NCBI RefSeq assembly: GCF_022814865.1
Contig: NZ_JAKVRD010000003.1
Coordinates: forward strand, 1 to 32,000
Origin: Shimia aestuarii
GTDB taxonomy: Bacteria; Pseudomonadota; Alphaproteobacteria; Rhodobacterales; Rhodobacteraceae
Length of the DNA stretch: 32,000 nucleotides
Direction of reading: 5' to 3'
Below are positions 25,308 through 28,853 of this stretch, in pieces (positions within the stretch are counted from its first letter, which is position 1; each line of letters opens with the position of its first letter). The notes under the pieces are model-generated. The model was given only the letters and a program-made list of their open reading frames with translations. It was not told where the DNA came from and made no database searches. The translations under genes were made by a program, and so were the position numbers.

Positions 25308-26021
25308 ATGGAACGTATGAAAGCCATCTTCGTAGTGACAGCGGCGCTCGCCTTCCTGCTGTCGCCGCTCTCCACCTCTGGCTTTAACGGTTTCACCGCC
25401 GATCAGTTCCCCATCCCCCAGACCGATCCCCCCGTTCAGCCCGCGGGCTATGCCTTCTCGATCTGGGGCGTGATCTATCTCTGGCTCATGGCGGGGGCGC
25501 TCTTCGGTCTCTTCAAGCGCGACCGGGCCCGCGACTGGACCACTATGCGCTGGCCGTTGATTCTGTCACTGGTGGTCGGCGCCGCTTGGATCCCGGCGGC
25601 AAATATGGATCCGGTCGCCGCCACCGCGATGATCTGGATCATGCTTGGCGCGGGGCTGGCCGCGCTGGCCCGTGCCGGGCGCTCTGACCATTTCTGGCTG
25701 CGCGCCCCCATCGGTCTCTATACCGGCTGGCTGACCGCGGCCTCCTGCGTCGCAACAGGGCTCGTCCTCGCCGGGCATGGCCTCCTCTCAGAACAAATCG
25801 CGGCACTTGCAATGATCGCCCTCGCCCTTCTCCTCGCGCTCTGGGTCCAAACCCGCGTCGCCGACACCCCCGAATATGGCCTCGCCGTGATCTGGGCCAC
25901 GGTCGGCATCCTCGTGGACAATGTCTCGCCGCTGAACGGTGCCGTGGTCGCGCTCTGCGGCCTTGGCCTCCCGCTCCTTGCATGGCCCGTACTGCGCGCC
26001 TTGGACAACTTGCGCCGCTGA
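25308..26021 (+). CDS. Integral membrane protein, possibly TspO/MBR-related
   Basis: 237 aa with about 6 hydrophobic segments. PAGYAFSIWGVIYLWL resembles a motif I associate with TspO-like tryptophan-rich membrane proteins. The CDS call is solid; the functional call is weak. Confidence 0.55.
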   Translation: MERMKAIFVVTAALAFLLSPLSTSGFNGFTADQFPIPQTDPPVQPAGYAFSIWGVIYLWLMAGALFGLFKRDRARDWTTMRWPLILSLVVGAAWIPAANMDPVAATAMIWIMLGAGLAALARAGRSDHFWLRAPIGLYTGWLTAASCVATGLVLAGHGLLSEQIAALAMIALALLLALWVQTRVADTPEYGLAVIWATVGILVDNVSPLNGAVVALCGLGLPLLAWPVLRALDNLRR

Positions 26022-26075
26022 TCCGGTCGCACTGGCGCCCCGAAAAGGCGCCAACATGACCTAAGACAAGGCGCG

Positions 26076-26115
26076 CCCTCCGCTTTCGCAGTACAATCTA
26101 CGAGCGAAAGGAGGG
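26076..26115 (+). promoter_or_regulatory. Leader hairpin pairing with the SD of the first gene of the orphan operon
   Basis: ccctcc (26076-26081) pairs with ggaggg (26110-26115) and tttcg (26084-26088) pairs with cgaaa (26105-26109), with a 2-nt bulge. AAGGAGGG is the SD for ATG 26120. Confidence 0.35.
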
Positions 26116-26119
26116 TGTT

Positions 26120-26443
26120 ATGAGCTACTTGAGAGTAACCAACCTATCCCGCATCAGCGCCGAAATCGAAGGGCGTTCGGGCGACCTTTCCGAAATCATC
26201 TACCTTGCGGAAGACGAACAGAAGGCGCTGCCGTTATGGCGCTTTCTGGCGGTGCAAAGCGTTGAGCCCGGTGTGTTGCGGCTCGAGCTTCACCTGCCCG
26301 GCAAAGGTGCCCGGCTCGACATGTATCGCATCTCGGAAAACCGGACCCTACGCCAGCGAAGCTTGATCGGCCCACGCAAACGCCGGCTGAGCCTGCGCAA
26401 GGATGAGATGCTGATGCTTATTCCCACCGGCGAATTTGAATGA
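26120..26443 (+). CDS. Hypothetical protein, no recognisable family (orphan operon gene 1)
   Basis: 107 aa. Very strong SD AAGGAGG 5 nt upstream. No signal peptide or TM segment. Basic patch GPRKRRLSLRK. Module-like start LRVTNLS and end KDEMLMLIP. Confidence 0.6.
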   Translation: MSYLRVTNLSRISAEIEGRSGDLSEIIYLAEDEQKALPLWRFLAVQSVEPGVLRLELHLPGKGARLDMYRISENRTLRQRSLIGPRKRRLSLRKDEMLMLIPTGEFE

Positions 26444-26462
26444 CTTCATAAGGAGACACACC

Positions 26463-27014
26463 ATGACTGAACATTTCGACATTTCCAAAATCGACGTAGA
26501 CGACCTTTATGGACAACTCGAAGCAGGTTTGGCCAAGCTGGATATTGCCAAGATGGCCGCGATTGCCGCGCAAGAGGCCAAGGAACGCCACTTGCACAGC
26601 TCCCTTGAGATCCGCAACATCGACCCGACAGGGCATCTTCTCGGCCTGCATATCGACTTCTCCGGCAAACAGGCCCGGCTGCGCATTCCGCCGCATGGCG
26701 CCCAGACCGTGCAGAACTTCAGCTTCCTGACCATGTGGTATATCCGCCTGCATCAGGATCCGCCGGTCAAACTGACCAACCGGGCGCACAACGCCTGCTT
26801 CTACGAGGTCAACCTCCTGCGCACCAATGGGCAGAACATCCAACAGCAGTTCCTCAACCCACATGTTGGCGCCTCCCATATCTATGATCTCGACGTGGGC
26901 GACCGCTTGATCGTGGTTCCGGTCAGCATGAACCAATACTTGCTGCGCCATGCCAACCACATCCACTGGGCCACCCCGGAGGACGATACCCTGATGGCCA
27001 GCGAAGAAGAGTGA
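26463..27014 (+). CDS. Hypothetical protein, no recognisable family (orphan operon gene 2)
   Basis: 183 aa from ATG 26463, with SD AAGGAG at 26450-26455; the track start 26436 is rejected. Third codon positions are mostly G/C in this frame. A helical N-terminus is followed by two module-like segments (LEIRNID..., VKLTNRA...GDRLIVVP). Confidence 0.6.
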   Translation: MTEHFDISKIDVDDLYGQLEAGLAKLDIAKMAAIAAQEAKERHLHSSLEIRNIDPTGHLLGLHIDFSGKQARLRIPPHGAQTVQNFSFLTMWYIRLHQDPPVKLTNRAHNACFYEVNLLRTNGQNIQQQFLNPHVGASHIYDLDVGDRLIVVPVSMNQYLLRHANHIHWATPEDDTLMASEEE

Positions 27015-27017
27015 TCC

Positions 27018-27740
27018 ATGTTACGGACAAAGGTTGAGATCACCAACCATAGCGGGGCGGGCACGGTCATCGTTGCCCGCTTCGAAACCAGCGCCGAGAC
27101 CGCGGGCAATCTGATGCTCGCCGGAGGCAGCAGCCAGATCTTCGAGAAGTTCGATCGCCTCACCATCACCGCCGCAAATGAGGGCGTGCCGGGGCGGTTG
27201 CGCCTGCTCAATCACGACGCGGCGGATGTCGTCCTGCGTCACATGACCAAAAGCGGCAATGTCGACGAAGACCGCATCCCCGGCAACGGGTTTGCAGATG
27301 TGGTTGTTGCTGGCGGGGATCAGATATTCCTCTCCGAGGCCCTCCCCGACCTGATCTTCCCCGAGCGCCCGATCCTGCACATGGCGATCCTGCGCCCCCA
27401 GCCGGGGCCGATCTTTGCCCCCAATCAAAAGCCCGCTGGCTTCTATGTCGATCTCGCTTGGCATCACCCGGACGAAGGCAGCGATCGCTTGCTCGGCTTC
27501 AATCTCTACCGTGCCGTCTACAAGGGCAACTATCCGATGGGCCAGCACCCCCTGAACGGTGCCCCACAGATCGGCACATCCGCACAGGTCGAAGACGTGA
27601 TCCCGCCCTACCCCTATAACCACCGCTACGCGATCATGGCGGTGAGCCGCGATGGCATCGAAAGCCTCTACTCCAACGTCCGCATCCTCGATTCCAATAC
27701 CCGCACCGATCTATTCGACGCCGGTTTCATCTGTCTCTGA
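27018..27740 (+). CDS. Hypothetical protein with C-terminal FN3-like domain (orphan operon gene 3)
   Basis: 240 aa. Its ATG lies 3 nt after the gene 2 stop. N-terminal modules VEITNHS...GRLRLL and ...GGDQIFLS. The C-terminal LAWHHP...GFNLYRAV...HRYAIMAVSRDGIESLYSNV follows the FN3 strand pattern (W, GYxVYR, YxYxVxAV, GxES). Confidence 0.6.
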   Translation: MLRTKVEITNHSGAGTVIVARFETSAETAGNLMLAGGSSQIFEKFDRLTITAANEGVPGRLRLLNHDAADVVLRHMTKSGNVDEDRIPGNGFADVVVAGGDQIFLSEALPDLIFPERPILHMAILRPQPGPIFAPNQKPAGFYVDLAWHHPDEGSDRLLGFNLYRAVYKGNYPMGQHPLNGAPQIGTSAQVEDVIPPYPYNHRYAIMAVSRDGIESLYSNVRILDSNTRTDLFDAGFICL

Positions 27741-27792
27741 CGGTCTTGTGGAGGATCAGCCGCTGTTAAGGTTTGACGGTTCGACGCGCCCC

Positions 27793-27834
27793 GCACGGAC
27801 GCGATACAGATGCAATACCGACGTAATACCGACG
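27793..27834 (+). repeat. Four direct repeats phased at 11 bp (GCACGGACG / ATACAGATG / ATACCGACG / ATACCGACG), copy B of the dispersed element
   Basis: Unit starts at 27793, 27804, 27815 and 27826, exactly 11 bp apart. Same units as 2800-2841 but in a permuted order. Lies between convergent gene ends. Confidence 0.85.
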
Positions 27835-27854
27835 TGGCATTTCGGGGTTAACCC

Positions 27855-28853
27855 CTACGCCTTCATCGCCTCCGCACCGGGCGAATGCGCAGGGAACGGA
27901 ACAAGCCGCTGGCGCTCCTCATCCCAGAGCTTGAGCGTGAAACTCCTAAGCGCTTCGGGCCACCGGATCACCCTGAGACCATACGCCTCGCGTATCTCCC
28001 GATGACAGCGGCGCAGGTTGTAATGCGGTATGCGGGCGTTGAAATGATGGATGTCGTGATAGGCGATATTGGCCGACCCAAGATCCATCCACCACCCAAG
28101 ATCAAGCGCCGACGCCCCCTCAAGCGCCGCCACGCGCGGATTGAGCGACGGCTTGCGATCCCAATGCGTGTCCTCGAAATTATGCTGTAGATAGACGAGG
28201 AAAACGCCAATCATCCCGCCCACAAAGCCCCAACCGAGCCACACAAGAACCCCTGTCCATCCCGCTGAAAAATATAGAAAAGAGACCCAGGCGGCCAGTG
28301 CGAGATTGTGCAACGCCAGCCCCCGAAGCCCGATCTCTGCGGCATTCTTCGGCCAGCGGTAGCGGATGAAATAGGTGAACGCCGATCCCAGCGGAATAAG
28401 GATGAACGGGTTGCGATAAAGCCGATAGAAAAGCCGCGTCGTCCAATCCGCCGCCTGCCATTCCGCGACGGTCATCGTATGCACTTCGCCCGTGTCGCGC
28501 TCCTCAAGATTGCCGACATGGGAATGGTGCAGATTATGATTGTGCCGCATGATCGTGAACGGTGCCATCGACCATACAGAAAGCACATGCCCCGCCGCGA
28601 CATTCATCCAACGCTTCGAAAAAAGCGTCCCGTGCCCGGCATCGTGCTGCAACACGTAGAGCCGCACCGCCGCAAAAGCGCTTATAACGCCCGCGGGAAC
28701 GAAGATAAGCCACTGATCCACATGGAAAATCGCCAGATAGAGCGATAGGAAATAAGCGCCGAACGTGCCGAAGAAACTCGCCGCGCCGATCCTGTCATCC
28801 TGTACCGTATAGGCCTTTAAACGCTCGCGAATATCCATCGCACCCCCGCTCAC
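27855..28853 (-). CDS. Membrane fatty acid desaturase (three His-box di-iron family)
   Basis: 332 aa. His boxes HDAGHG, HNHNLHH and HDIHHF, with TM segments between them. The track start 28853 is GTG; ATG 28838 (MDIRERL) is an equally plausible start. Confidence 0.85.
   Translation of the reverse strand: MSGGAMDIRERLKAYTVQDDRIGAASFFGTFGAYFLSLYLAIFHVDQWLIFVPAGVISAFAAVRLYVLQHDAGHGTLFSKRWMNVAAGHVLSVWSMAPFTIMRHNHNLHHSHVGNLEERDTGEVHTMTVAEWQAADWTTRLFYRLYRNPFILIPLGSAFTYFIRYRWPKNAAEIGLRGLALHNLALAAWVSFLYFSAGWTGVLVWLGWGFVGGMIGVFLVYLQHNFEDTHWDRKPSLNPRVAALEGASALDLGWWMDLGSANIAYHDIHHFNARIPHYNLRRCHREIREAYGLRVIRWPEALRSFTLKLWDEERQRLVPFPAHSPGAEAMKA

What the first reader, a model, noticed from the sequence alone, without database searches (positions are those of the whole stretch)
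26076..27740. Orphan three-gene operon of unassignable, signal-less, beta-rich proteins with a shared module and an FN3-like tail
Seen directly:
- Three + strand ORFs (107, 183 and 240 aa) are packed with gaps of 19 nt and 3 nt.
- Genes 1 and 2 have the strongest SD sequences in the window (AAGGAGG, AAGGAG).
- Third codon positions are mostly G/C in the called frames.
- None of the three shows a signal peptide, a TM helix, or any catalytic or nucleotide-binding motif I can recognise. I can assign none of them to a family.

A short pattern recurs four times across the three proteins. Module starts are LRVTNLS (P1), LEIRNID and VKLTNRA (P2) and VEITNHS (P3). Module ends are KDEMLMLIP (P1), GDRLIVVP (P2) and GDQIFLS (P3). 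P1 and the N-terminal half of P3 also share G.LRL.L. This suggests about four diverged copies of one roughly 100-aa beta-sandwich-like module spread over three genes (inference).

The P3 C-terminus follows the FN3 strand pattern.

Spot G+C counts on 26461-26640 gave 26, 35 and 35 per 60 nt. A P3 line (27541-27600) gave 39/60. So the 5' part looks patchily AT-richer than its neighbours.

The cluster sits among conserved housekeeping genes (serS upstream, der/bamB downstream). It is bracketed by a leader hairpin that pairs with the SD and by the 11-bp phased repeat array. It is the most plausible accessory or novel unit in this window. Its function is unknown.
Basis: partly seen in the sequence, partly recalled or inferred. 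Interest (0 to 1): 0.75.

Follow-up and report, generated by a model that had tools for sequence, protein, structure and literature searches.

The report
Rare low-oxygen three-gene beta-sandwich cassette
Three tightly packed genes encode related small beta-sandwich proteins that belong to no described family, travel together as a unit in a few Alphaproteobacteria, and in most of those genomes sit behind an FNR/FixK-type low-oxygen promoter; what they do is unknown.

Summary
The three + strand genes are real: P1 26120-26443, P2 26463-27014, P3 27018-27740. Pfam, NCBIfam, PADLOC and PHROGs give no significant hit. A P2 profile finds only 3 clusters among 1.84 billion representative proteins.

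The triad always occurs as a unit, in the same order and with similar sizes, in about 12 distinct loci. The named hosts are Shimia, Polymorphum, Afifella, Hoeflea, Ciceribacter and Rhizobium. The neighbouring genes differ between genera.

Profile comparison shows one shared module of about 105 aa per protein. Scores are 42, 36 and 25 against a shuffled null of 11±2. AlphaFold models give a 10-strand sandwich in P2 and P3. P3 also carries a real FN3 domain.

New here: every perfect TTGAY-N4-RTCAA (FNR/FixK) box in about 200 kb of loci lies 47-72 nt upstream of a P1 gene (9 of 12 loci). A -10-like hexamer follows at class II spacing (P = 4e-7). The window itself has a degenerate box (8/10), an exact-spaced TACAAT and a hairpin that sequesters the ribosome-binding site.

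Best reading: a new, self-contained, low-oxygen-induced operon whose paralogous subunits form a binding complex. The biochemical function is unresolved. G+C content is not anomalous.

The parts
26056..26069 (.). Degenerate Crp/Fnr-type box ATGACCTAAGACAA. It matches 8 of the 10 specified positions of TTGAY-N4-RTCAA, with one mismatch per half-site. Its centre is 57.5 nt upstream of the P1 ATG.
   Evidence: It occupies the same position as the perfect boxes of 9 other loci, whose centres lie 47-72 nt upstream of the P1 start. The chance of an 8/10 or better match is about 0.11 per 100 nt, or about 0.02 within the homologous 19-nt position range.
26092..26097 (+). -10-like hexamer TACAAT (5/6). 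It starts exactly 36 nt after the box start, the class II spacing for a box centred at -41.5. The predicted transcription start is about 26104.
   Evidence: Eight of 10 loci have an A2/T6 hexamer at this spacing, against a background frequency of 0.10 (binomial P 3.7e-7). The transcription start itself is an inference.
26075..26116 (+). Leader hairpin whose 3' arm contains the P1 ribosome-binding site. Its 5' arm (26075-26089) lies upstream of the predicted transcription start.
   Evidence: MFE -29.3 kcal/mol, z -2.7, 2 of 200 shuffles fold as well. It is not conserved in other loci.
26108..26114 (+). Shine-Dalgarno AAGGAGG of P1.
26120..26443 (+). P1, 107 aa. It is the bare beta-sandwich module and the fastest-evolving of the three (23-46% identity to orthologues).
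   Evidence: hhalign of P1 3-105 against the P3 N-domain 5-110 gives probability 92%, E 5e-7, score 41.7. The shuffled null is 10.8±2.2.
26450..26455 (+). Shine-Dalgarno AAGGAG of P2.
26463..27014 (+). P2, 183 aa. It is the most conserved subunit (57-67% identity to the orthologues compared, 36-67% across the 24-sequence family). It has 30 invariant positions in 24 sequences, many of them polar (N52, D54, H58, D65, N85, T90, D99, Q127, N132, Y141, R148).
   Evidence: AlphaFold model with pLDDT 85.6.
26463..26597 (+). P2 residues 1-45: N-terminal extension with two helices (12-20 and 28-42).
26598..26930 (+). P2 residues 46-156: a single 10-strand module, from 'LEIRN' to 'GDRLIVVP'.
   Evidence: Against the P3 N-domain: probability 79%, score 35.6, null 11.3±1.9.
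27018..27740 (+). P3, 240 aa: module, then FN3 domain, then conserved tail.
27018..27347 (+). P3 residues 1-110: 10-strand module paralogous to P1 and to the P2 core.
27363..27695 (+). P3 residues 116-226: 7-strand FN3-like domain. It carries W148 (strand B), Y164 (strand C) and Y204-x3-A208...G213 (strand F and the FG loop).
   Evidence: AlphaFold secondary structure. Foldseek hits to tandem FN3 proteins, probability about 1.0. Weak profile hits to FN3 chains in the PDB. UniRef names the P. gilvum orthologue 'Fibronectin type-III domain-containing protein'.
27696..27737 (+). P3 residues 227-240: conserved C-terminal tail (…T…L.DAG.I..). It is modelled with low confidence and is a candidate docking peptide.
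   Evidence: Conservation. pLDDT below 50. The docking role is an inference.

Best explanation
This is a self-contained three-gene cassette found in a handful of Alphaproteobacteria.

The three proteins are paralogues built on one Ig-like beta-sandwich module of about 105 residues and 10 strands:
- P1 is the bare module.
- P2 is the module with an N-terminal helical extension and a short C-terminal extension.
- P3 is the module fused to an FN3 domain and a conserved flexible tail.

The cassette carries its own class II promoter for a Crp/Fnr-family activator (FnrL/FnrN/FixK type). The proteins should therefore be made when oxygen is scarce, or possibly when nitric oxide is present.

In the Shimia window the activator box is weakened (8/10) but the -10 element is near-consensus. 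A hairpin that hides the P1 ribosome-binding site would form only in transcripts reading through from the upstream gene. It would not form in the transcript that starts at the cassette's own promoter.

Inferred:
- The three subunits are made in matched amounts. The genes are tightly packed, with a fixed order and near-coupled translation.
- They assemble in the cytoplasm into a hetero-oligomer that works by binding something (scaffold, adaptor or chaperone-like) rather than by recognisable catalysis.
- The highly conserved P2 is the functional core.
- P3 supplies interaction surfaces through its FN3 domain and tail.
- P1 is a fast-evolving cap or adaptor.

Shown: gene reality, the paralogy, the folds, the synteny, the rarity, and the promoter motif across loci.

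Inferred: oxygen regulation in this window, complex formation, cytoplasmic location, and a non-catalytic role.
For: Genes are real.
- Orthologues exist in different orders, with dN/dS of about 0.25-0.45 for P2 and P3.

The triad is a unit.
- Proteins of 105-126, 173-186 and 239-247 aa occur in the same order in every locus examined. These include Polymorphum, Afifella, Ciceribacter, Hoeflea, a Rhizobium MAG and several metagenome contigs.
- The neighbours differ between genera.

The family is new and rare.
- Four profile libraries give no significant hit.
- Profile searches of PDB sequences find nothing natural.
- There are 24 P2 clusters among 5.8 billion proteins.
- There are 3 clusters among 1.84 billion representatives.
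- It occurs in 5 of 185,579 species genomes.
- There are no copies in phage, plasmid or IMG/VR collections.

Paralogy.
- hhalign scores are 41.7, 35.6 and 25.0, end to end and in one register. The column-shuffled null is about 11±2 with a maximum of 17.
- MAFFT aligns all three families in the same register.
- P2 and the P3 N-domain both model as 10 strands in about 105 residues.

FN3.

Promoter.
- All perfect TTGAY-N4-RTCAA matches in the loci examined lie 47-72 nt upstream of a P1 start. They are found in 9 of 12 distinct loci.
- The half-sites are invariant while the spacers and flanks vary.
- A -10-like hexamer sits at class II spacing in 8 of 10 loci (P 3.7e-7).
- The consensus and its link to oxygen are documented for alphaproteobacterial FnrL, FnrN and FixK (PMC2908626, PMC4999443).

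Window-specific: 8/10 box, TACAAT at the exact spacing, and the hairpin.
Against: - No expression, binding or localisation data exist.
- The window's own box is only 8/10, with chance of about 0.02 at the homologous position. Afifella and one metagenome lineage lack a box.
- Crp/Fnr-type boxes do not say which family member binds (O2-sensing FnrL/FnrN, FixK, or NO-sensing Dnr/NnrR types).
- Complex formation was not modelled.
- P2 has many invariant polar residues, which would also fit an unrecognised enzyme or small-ligand site.
- Ig-like and FN3 domains are usually extracellular in bacteria, which sits awkwardly with a cytoplasmic role.
Confidence: 0.45

Rival explanations
1. P2 is a new enzyme or small-ligand or metal-binding protein. 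Its active site would be built from invariant polar loop residues. P1 and P3 would be accessory or regulatory paralogues, and the operon would perform a specific chemical task under low oxygen.
For: P2 is far more constrained than P1 or P3. It is 57-67% identical to the orthologues compared in other genera. Thirty positions are invariant in 24 sequences, including N52, D54, H58, D65, N85, D99, Q127, N132, Y141 and R148. P1 is only 23-46% identical.
Against: There is no match to any catalytic family or motif. The fold matches are to non-catalytic Ig-like sandwiches. No cofactor or substrate-pathway genes are conserved next to the triad.
Confidence: 0.2
2. The proteins are exported by a non-classical route and form a surface or extracellular structure, such as an adhesin or a fibre built from Ig-like subunits.
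For: In bacteria Ig-like and FN3 domains are mostly extracellular. The P2 model's best TM-score matches in the PDB are to the Streptococcus pyogenes major pilin (TM 0.40). The P3 model matches adhesins and tandem FN3 proteins.
Against: No signal peptide, lipobox, Tat motif or LPXTG is present in any orthologue. No secretion, usher, sortase or transporter gene is conserved nearby. The pilin matches are weak and generic.
Confidence: 0.15
3. It is an anti-phage defence or other conflict cassette that spreads horizontally.
For: Its distribution is very patchy, with different neighbourhoods in every genus. One copy sits next to a tRNA-Leu gene and one sits near IS elements.
Against: PADLOC gives no hit. 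None of the three proteins matches any catalytic family, and no defence genes are seen alongside. An FNR-type promoter is not typical of defence systems. There are no copies on plasmids, phages or viral contigs. G+C and GC3 are host-like.
Confidence: 0.07
4. It is a remnant or moron of phage origin, for example a structural or decoration protein set.
For: The best structural match of the P2 model in BFVD is an uncharacterised 124-aa protein of Caulobacter phage Sansa (E 1e-5, TM 0.71 on the target, rmsd 3.0 Å).
Against: There is no sequence similarity to any candidate Sansa protein. tblastn finds nothing in 50,697 phage records or in IMG/VR. No phage genes flank any copy.
Confidence: 0.04
5. 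The + strand ORFs are chance ORFs in G+C-rich DNA, and the long - strand ORFs (26418-26966, 27021-27623) are the real genes or nothing is coding.
For: Long overlapping ORFs exist on the - strand, as expected in DNA with about 60% G+C.
Against: The + strand proteins are conserved in other genera with third-position-biased divergence. They have strong ribosome-binding sites and confident AlphaFold models.
Confidence: 0.01

Closest known systems
Fibronectin type III (FN3) domains, e.g. Pfam PF00041 and the tandem FN3 of PTPRD, integrin beta-4, neogenin and titin
   Same: P3 residues 116-226 model as a 7-strand sandwich. They carry the hallmark Trp (strand B), Tyr (strand C) and Tyr...Ala...Gly (strand F and the FG loop). 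Foldseek matches tandem FN3 proteins with probability about 1.0, and profile hits to FN3 chains fall on this stretch.
   Different: The Pfam fn3 model gives no hit even at E<=10. The domain sits in a signal-less small protein behind a new N-terminal module, not in an extracellular enzyme or receptor.
Generic Ig-like beta-sandwich domains (Gram-positive pilin CnaB-type domains, macroglobulin domains, de novo designed immunoglobulins 8bl3/8bl6)
   Same: The shared module has an all-beta sandwich fold. The only PDB sequence-profile hits are to idealised designed Ig domains. Foldseek hits are to Ig-like sandwiches.
   Different: The module has 10 short strands in about 105 residues. TM-scores are at most 0.4. 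There is no sequence relationship to any natural family. There are no isopeptide, sortase or signal features.
Members of alphaproteobacterial FnrL/FnrN/FixK regulons with class II promoters (e.g. ccoNOQP/fixNOQP, hemN)
   Same: A TTGAT-N4-ATCAA-type palindrome is followed by a -10 element at the spacing expected for a site centred at -41.5 (consensus from PMC2908626 and PMC4999443).
   Different: The known core regulon encodes respiratory and haem functions. This triad has no recognisable redox, haem or respiratory feature and is not in the published regulon reconstructions I consulted. In the window itself the box is degenerate.
Uncharacterised 124-aa protein A0A0K1LLS1 of Caulobacter phage Sansa
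   Same: It is the best single-domain structural match to the P2 module (E 1e-5, TM 0.71 normalised to the phage protein, rmsd 3.0 Å). Its host is an alphaproteobacterium.
   Different: Identity is 13% with no profile similarity. The likely gene (CPT_Sansa53) has a lipoprotein-like N-terminus. It is a single gene, not a triad, and its function is also unknown.

Membership tests
FN3 domain (fibronectin type III fold) | Seven-strand beta-sandwich of about 90-110 residues | tested here: met
   The AlphaFold model of P3 has strands at 119-127, 142-149, 158-169, 172-178, 188-193, 202-210 and 219-223.
FN3 domain (fibronectin type III fold) | Structural superposition on solved FN3 domains | tested here: met
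   Foldseek against the PDB matches PTPRD FN4-6, fibronectin 10-12, integrin beta-4, neogenin and titin, with probability 0.99-1.0 and E 1e-4 to 3e-3. TM-scores are low because the two-domain orientation differs.
FN3 domain (fibronectin type III fold) | Hallmark core residues: Trp in strand B, Tyr in strand C, and the tyrosine-corner Y...A...G in strand F | tested here: met
   W148, Y164, Y204, A208 and G213 are invariant in the four-sequence alignment of the closest orthologues. Y164 is replaced by R or W in two more distant P3 orthologues.
FN3 domain (fibronectin type III fold) | Significant match to the Pfam fn3 profile | tested here: not met
   No Pfam family at E<=10. There are only weak hmmsearch hits to FN3 chains in the PDB, at E 0.5-1.8.
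Crp/Fnr (FnrL/FnrN/FixK) regulon, class II activated promoter | Palindromic TTGAT-N4-ATCAA-type box upstream of the operon | tested here: inconclusive
   Nine of 12 distinct loci of the family have a perfect TTGAY-N4-RTCAA box, and no perfect box occurs elsewhere in about 200 kb. The window itself has only an 8/10 match at the homologous position.
Crp/Fnr (FnrL/FnrN/FixK) regulon, class II activated promoter | Box centred near -41.5, i.e. a -10 hexamer starting about 29.5 nt from the box centre | tested here: met
   Eight of 10 loci have an A2/T6 hexamer at box start +35 to +37. The window has TACAAT at exactly +36. Binomial P 3.7e-7. Transcription starts are not mapped.
Crp/Fnr (FnrL/FnrN/FixK) regulon, class II activated promoter | Regulator binding and oxygen-dependent transcription | not testable with these tools
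   This needs ChIP or EMSA, and RNA measurements under oxic and microoxic growth.
Known anti-phage defence systems (PADLOC) | Match of at least one component to a defence-system profile | tested here: not met
   No hit at E<=10 for all three proteins.
Secreted pilins and adhesins (chaperone-usher or sortase-assembled) | N-terminal signal peptide, sortase LPXTG motif, or dedicated assembly genes nearby | tested here: not met
   No signal peptide or LPXTG appears in any orthologue sequence. No usher, chaperone or sortase gene occurs in any neighbourhood.
Small heat-shock proteins and other cytoplasmic beta-sandwich chaperones (HSP20/alpha-crystallin, CS/p23) | Profile match to HSP20 or CS domains, or a structural match to them | tested here: not met
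   There is no Pfam or NCBIfam hit. None appears among the top 50 Foldseek PDB hits.
Phage protein families (PHROGs) | Significant match to a PHROG profile, or a copy in phage genomes | tested here: not met
   The only PHROG hit has E 0.36. tblastn against phages and a scan of IMG/VR find nothing.

The most novel reading that the evidence does not exclude
The triad is a previously unrecognised cytoplasmic machine. Three paralogous Ig-like subunits, one of them carrying an FN3 domain, would assemble into a defined hetero-oligomer made specifically under oxygen limitation through FnrL/FnrN/FixK. Its function would have no counterpart among known low-oxygen responses. That would make it a new protein family, a new module architecture and a new physiological role.
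Probability: 0.3. Interest if true: 0.7.

Novelty: categorically new. Interest (0 to 1): 0.52.

Why it matters
If the reading holds, this is a compact three-protein system that no library describes and that comes with a built-in clue to when it is used, namely low oxygen.

- It would add an unknown function to FnrL/FnrN/FixK regulons, which are otherwise dominated by respiratory and haem genes.
- It would give an unusual example of Ig-like and FN3 domains working inside the bacterial cytoplasm.
- It would give a clean case of a heteromer built by gene duplication into three separate genes.

It is small and easy to test: three genes, soluble proteins and cultivable hosts such as Shimia sp. FJ5 and Polymorphum gilvum.

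The caveat is that 'new' is established here by exclusion. The folds are common, the function is unknown, and the family is so rare that its general importance may be small.

Tried and rejected
- **Four-module model.** The two halves of P2 show no similarity to each other (probability 0.2%). Rejected in favour of one module per protein.
- **Compositional island.** G+C is at the 13th percentile and GC3 is host-like. Rejected.
- **RNA element in the leader or nearby.** Rfam finds nothing at E<=1 in 25500-28500. The hairpin over the ribosome-binding site is not conserved in other loci.
- **Sigma-70 promoter and terminator scan.** It found nothing. The class II architecture was found only by anchoring on the box.
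- **Phage Sansa lead.** The structural match is real, but there is no sequence similarity to candidate genes and they have no annotated function. Dead end.
- **Charge pattern.** A basic P1 as a nucleic-acid binder was considered, but pI varies from 4.9 to 11 among orthologues. Rejected.
- **Conserved fourth gene.** None was found in any of the neighbourhoods across genera.
- **Vehicles.** There are no copies in plasmid, phage or IMG/VR collections.
- **Literature.** No paper mentions the P. gilvum accessions.
Full report
**1. The observation**

The window carries three + strand ORFs:
- P1, 26120-26443, 107 aa
- P2, 26463-27014, 183 aa
- P3, 27018-27740, 240 aa

They are separated by 19 nt and 3 nt. 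AAGGAGG (26108-26114) and AAGGAG (26450-26455) precede P1 and P2. No longer in-frame version exists that could add a signal peptide. GC3 is 0.70-0.78.

Pfam, NCBIfam and PADLOC return nothing at E<=10. PHROGs returns one meaningless hit at E 0.36. So the descriptive core of the finding is correct.

Three details are not:
- The triad's G+C (0.591) is at the 13th percentile of equal-sized stretches of the window (0.614±0.019). The der and desaturase genes downstream are just as low.
- The downstream '11-bp phased repeat array' is two copies of AATACCGACGT at 27814-27835.
- The module count is wrong (section 4).

**2. The genes are real and form a unit**

The source is Shimia sp. FJ5 or a near-identical strain. 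All contigs that carry the identical P2 show the same serS - orf237 - triad - desaturase - der - bamB order.

P3 has only three other relatives among 5.8 billion clusters: Polymorphum gilvum, Afifella pfennigii and one metagenome contig, at 51-57% identity. Profile searches find 24 P2 clusters and 6 P1 clusters.

In every locus I could read, the three genes occur together. They keep the same order and have similar sizes (105-126, 173-186 and 239-247 aa). The loci are:
- P. gilvum (L001)
- Afifella (L002)
- Ciceribacter lividus (L004)
- two Hoeflea genomes (L011, L012)
- a Rhizobium MAG (L015)
- metagenome contigs L003, L005, L007, L009 and L017-L020

The flanking genes differ between genera:
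- P. gilvum: PGI and cobalt transport
- Afifella: Na/H exchanger and acyl-CoA dehydrogenase
- Ciceribacter: AraC and CopG
- L005: PQQ dehydrogenase and IS elements
- L007: flagellar genes
- L009: tRNA-Leu and trigger factor
- Hoeflea: penicillin amidase and an ECF sigma factor

Divergence is biased to third codon positions. For P2 and P3, dN/dS is about 0.25-0.45, although dS is near saturation. The long - strand ORFs are therefore the usual by-product of G+C-rich DNA.

**3. Rarity and isolation**

- A pattern scan of one genome for each of 185,579 species found the P2 gene in five genomes, all Hyphomicrobiales.
- An exhaustive HMMER search of 1.84 billion representative proteins with the 24-sequence P2 profile found three clusters and no distant relatives.
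- tblastn against 50,697 phage records and 72,556 plasmids found nothing. A scan of IMG/VR also found nothing.
- No paper in the library mentions the P. gilvum accessions.

**4. One shared module, three copies**

I built 8-sequence family alignments from the loci and compared the profiles with hhalign:
- P1 (3-105) aligns with the P3 N-terminal domain (5-110) at probability 92%, E 5e-7, score 41.7.
- The P2 core (46-154) aligns with the P3 N-terminal domain (4-107) at probability 79%, score 35.6.
- P1 aligns with the P2 core over its full length at score 25.0.

Sixty column-shuffled controls per pair gave 10.8-11.3 ± 2, with a maximum of 17.3. Reversed profiles scored 10-14.

MAFFT aligns all three families end to end in the same register. 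The shared landmarks are 'h-x-I-x-N' at strand 1, 'G..Q..h..F..hT', 'h-R-L-x-N' in the middle, and '(G)D/E-x-L-h-h-h-P' at the end.

P2's second 'start' (VKLTN) is the mid-module motif, which is also present in P3 (LRLLN). The P3 C-terminal half is unrelated to the module.

**5. Structures**

The P2 model comes from a 24-sequence alignment and has pLDDT 85.6. It has two N-terminal helices (12-20 and 28-42), ten strands between residues 47 and 154, and short C-terminal helices.

The P3 model comes from four sequences and has pLDDT 77.7. It has ten strands at 5-107, a seven-strand domain at 119-223, and a low-confidence tail at 227-240 that is nevertheless conserved.

Foldseek against the PDB:
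- P3 matches tandem FN3 and macroglobulin-domain proteins at probability about 1.0. These include PTPRD FN4-6, fibronectin 10-12, integrin beta-4, neogenin, titin and complement C3.
- P2 matches only generic Ig-like sandwiches. The best TM-score is 0.40, to the S. pyogenes pilin.

Profile searches of PDB sequences give weak FN3 hits on P3 residues 122-207. For the combined module profile they give only de novo designed immunoglobulins.

The FN3 call is also backed by hallmark residues (W148, Y164, Y204...A208...G213) and by UniRef's name for the P. gilvum protein. The Pfam fn3 model itself does not hit.

In BFVD the P2 model matches a 124-aa uncharacterised protein of Caulobacter phage Sansa (E 1e-5, TM 0.71). 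I found no sequence similarity to the candidate Sansa genes and no functional annotation for them.

**6. A conserved low-oxygen-type promoter (new)**

The regions upstream of P1 contain a 14-bp palindrome. All perfect matches to TTGAY-N4-RTCAA in the loci and window examined lie 47-72 nt upstream of a P1 start. They occur in nine of twelve distinct loci:
- TTGATTGAAATCAA in P. gilvum
- TTGATTTCAATCAA in Ciceribacter and in the Rhizobium MAG
- TTGACAATTGTCAA in L005
- TTGACTTGTATCAA in L007
- TTGATGTCCGTCAA and TTGACGCCCGTCAA in the two Hoeflea genomes
- TTGACGTACATCAA and TTGACGTAAATCAA in L019 and L020

The half-sites are invariant while the spacer and flanks vary. That is the signature of a protein-binding site.

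This is the canonical FNR-type target. TTGAT-N4-ATCAA was validated by ChIP for Rhodobacter sphaeroides FnrL (PMC2908626). FnrN and FixK recognise TTGANCNNGATCAANG (PMC4999443).

Anchoring on the box, eight of ten loci have a -10-like hexamer with A at position 2 and T at position 6. It starts 35-37 nt after the box start. The background frequency is 0.10, giving binomial P 3.7e-7. From established knowledge of class II FNR and FixK promoters, this is the spacing expected for a site centred at -41.5. It implies leaders of 13-31 nt.

The promoter travels with the three genes into different neighbourhoods, so the cassette is a transcriptionally self-contained unit.

**7. The window's own control region**

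Shimia lacks a perfect box. It has the following:
- ATGACCTAAGACAA at 26056-26069, which is 8/10 with one mismatch per half-site. It sits at the homologous position, where chance is about 0.02.
- The best -10 of all loci, TACAAT at 26092-26097, at exactly the class II spacing.

The predicted transcription start is near 26104, four nt before the ribosome-binding site.

Its 5' arm lies upstream of the predicted start.

My inference is that the hairpin silences P1 translation only on transcripts reading through from the upstream gene, 98 nt away. The promoter's own transcript would keep the ribosome-binding site free. Afifella and the L009 lineage have no recognisable box, so control has diverged in some hosts.

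**8. What it most likely does**

Shown:
- three paralogous Ig-like modules in three genes that are always together and tightly packed
- no export signals
- no catalytic signature
- a Crp/Fnr-type promoter

Inferred: a soluble hetero-oligomer made under oxygen limitation that acts by binding.
- P2 would be the conserved core (30 invariant positions in 24 sequences, many polar).
- P3 would contribute the FN3 domain and a conserved flexible tail as docking surfaces.
- P1 would be a fast-evolving adaptor.

I put 0.45 on this package. The parts carry different weights:

| Claim | Confidence |
|---|---|
| The genes are real | >0.95 |
| The three modules are paralogous | about 0.9 |
| Crp/Fnr control across the family | about 0.85 |
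| Crp/Fnr control in this window | about 0.5 |
| Hetero-oligomer formation | about 0.5 |
| Non-catalytic role | about 0.4 |

Rivals:
- P2 is an unrecognised enzyme or ligand binder (0.2).
- The proteins form a structure exported by a non-classical route (0.15).
- It is a defence or conflict cassette (0.07).
- It is a phage remnant (0.04).
- It is not coding (0.01).

**9. Novelty and verdict**

No defining feature of any characterised family other than the FN3 fold of the P3 tail is met. The module, the three-gene architecture and the family are undescribed, so by exclusion it falls outside known kinds.

The folds themselves are ordinary. The function is unknown and the family is extremely rare. 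Uncharacterised small operons are also common in bacterial genomes.

The conserved low-oxygen promoter and the clean paralogue architecture make it an unusually tractable unknown.

Noticed in passing
window 27814-27835: A perfect two-copy tandem repeat of AATACCGACGT lies in the convergent intergenic region between P3 and the fatty-acid desaturase gene (27855-28853, - strand). It is only two copies, not an array.
   Followed up: partly
window 25308-26021 (+): This 237-aa hydrophobic, Trp-rich predicted membrane protein lies directly upstream of the triad on the same strand, 98 nt away. It has no Pfam hit at E<=0.01. It may read through into the triad leader.
   Followed up: partly
L009 5421-5504 (and L010): In this metagenome lineage the triad lies about 110 nt downstream of a tRNA-Leu gene. 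A Hint_2-domain gene lies on the other side of the tRNA. This locus has no FNR-type box.
   Followed up: partly
L005 8533-10959: Several IS and transposase fragments (HTH_Tnp_1, rve) lie 1.2 kb downstream of the triad in this metagenome contig.
   Followed up: no
L016 (Caulobacter phage Sansa KT001913) 37603-37977: CPT_Sansa53 is a 124-aa protein with a lipoprotein-like N-terminus and a beta-rich body. It sits between two terminators after the lysis cassette, and the depositors annotated it 'o-spanin?????'. It is probably the BFVD entry A0A0K1LLS1 that matches the P2 module structurally. Its sequence ends in a 'GGDKRIFSL' motif that resembles the module end.
   Followed up: partly
window 26048-26074: A short GGCGC...GCGCC stem brackets the degenerate FNR-type box in the minimum-free-energy fold of the leader. 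Its significance is unknown.
   Followed up: no
L002 7045-7425: The Afifella P1 gene is called with a 19-residue N-terminal extension (126 aa against about 108). The true start is probably the internal Met. The upstream region holds a different palindrome (CTTGAGCTGCAAG) instead of an FNR-type box.
   Followed up: no
PDB entries 8bl6, 8bl3, 7skn: The only PDB sequences hit by the combined module profile are de novo designed immunoglobulin domains (E 0.003-0.14). This suggests the module has an unusually 'idealised' beta-sandwich sequence pattern.
   Followed up: no
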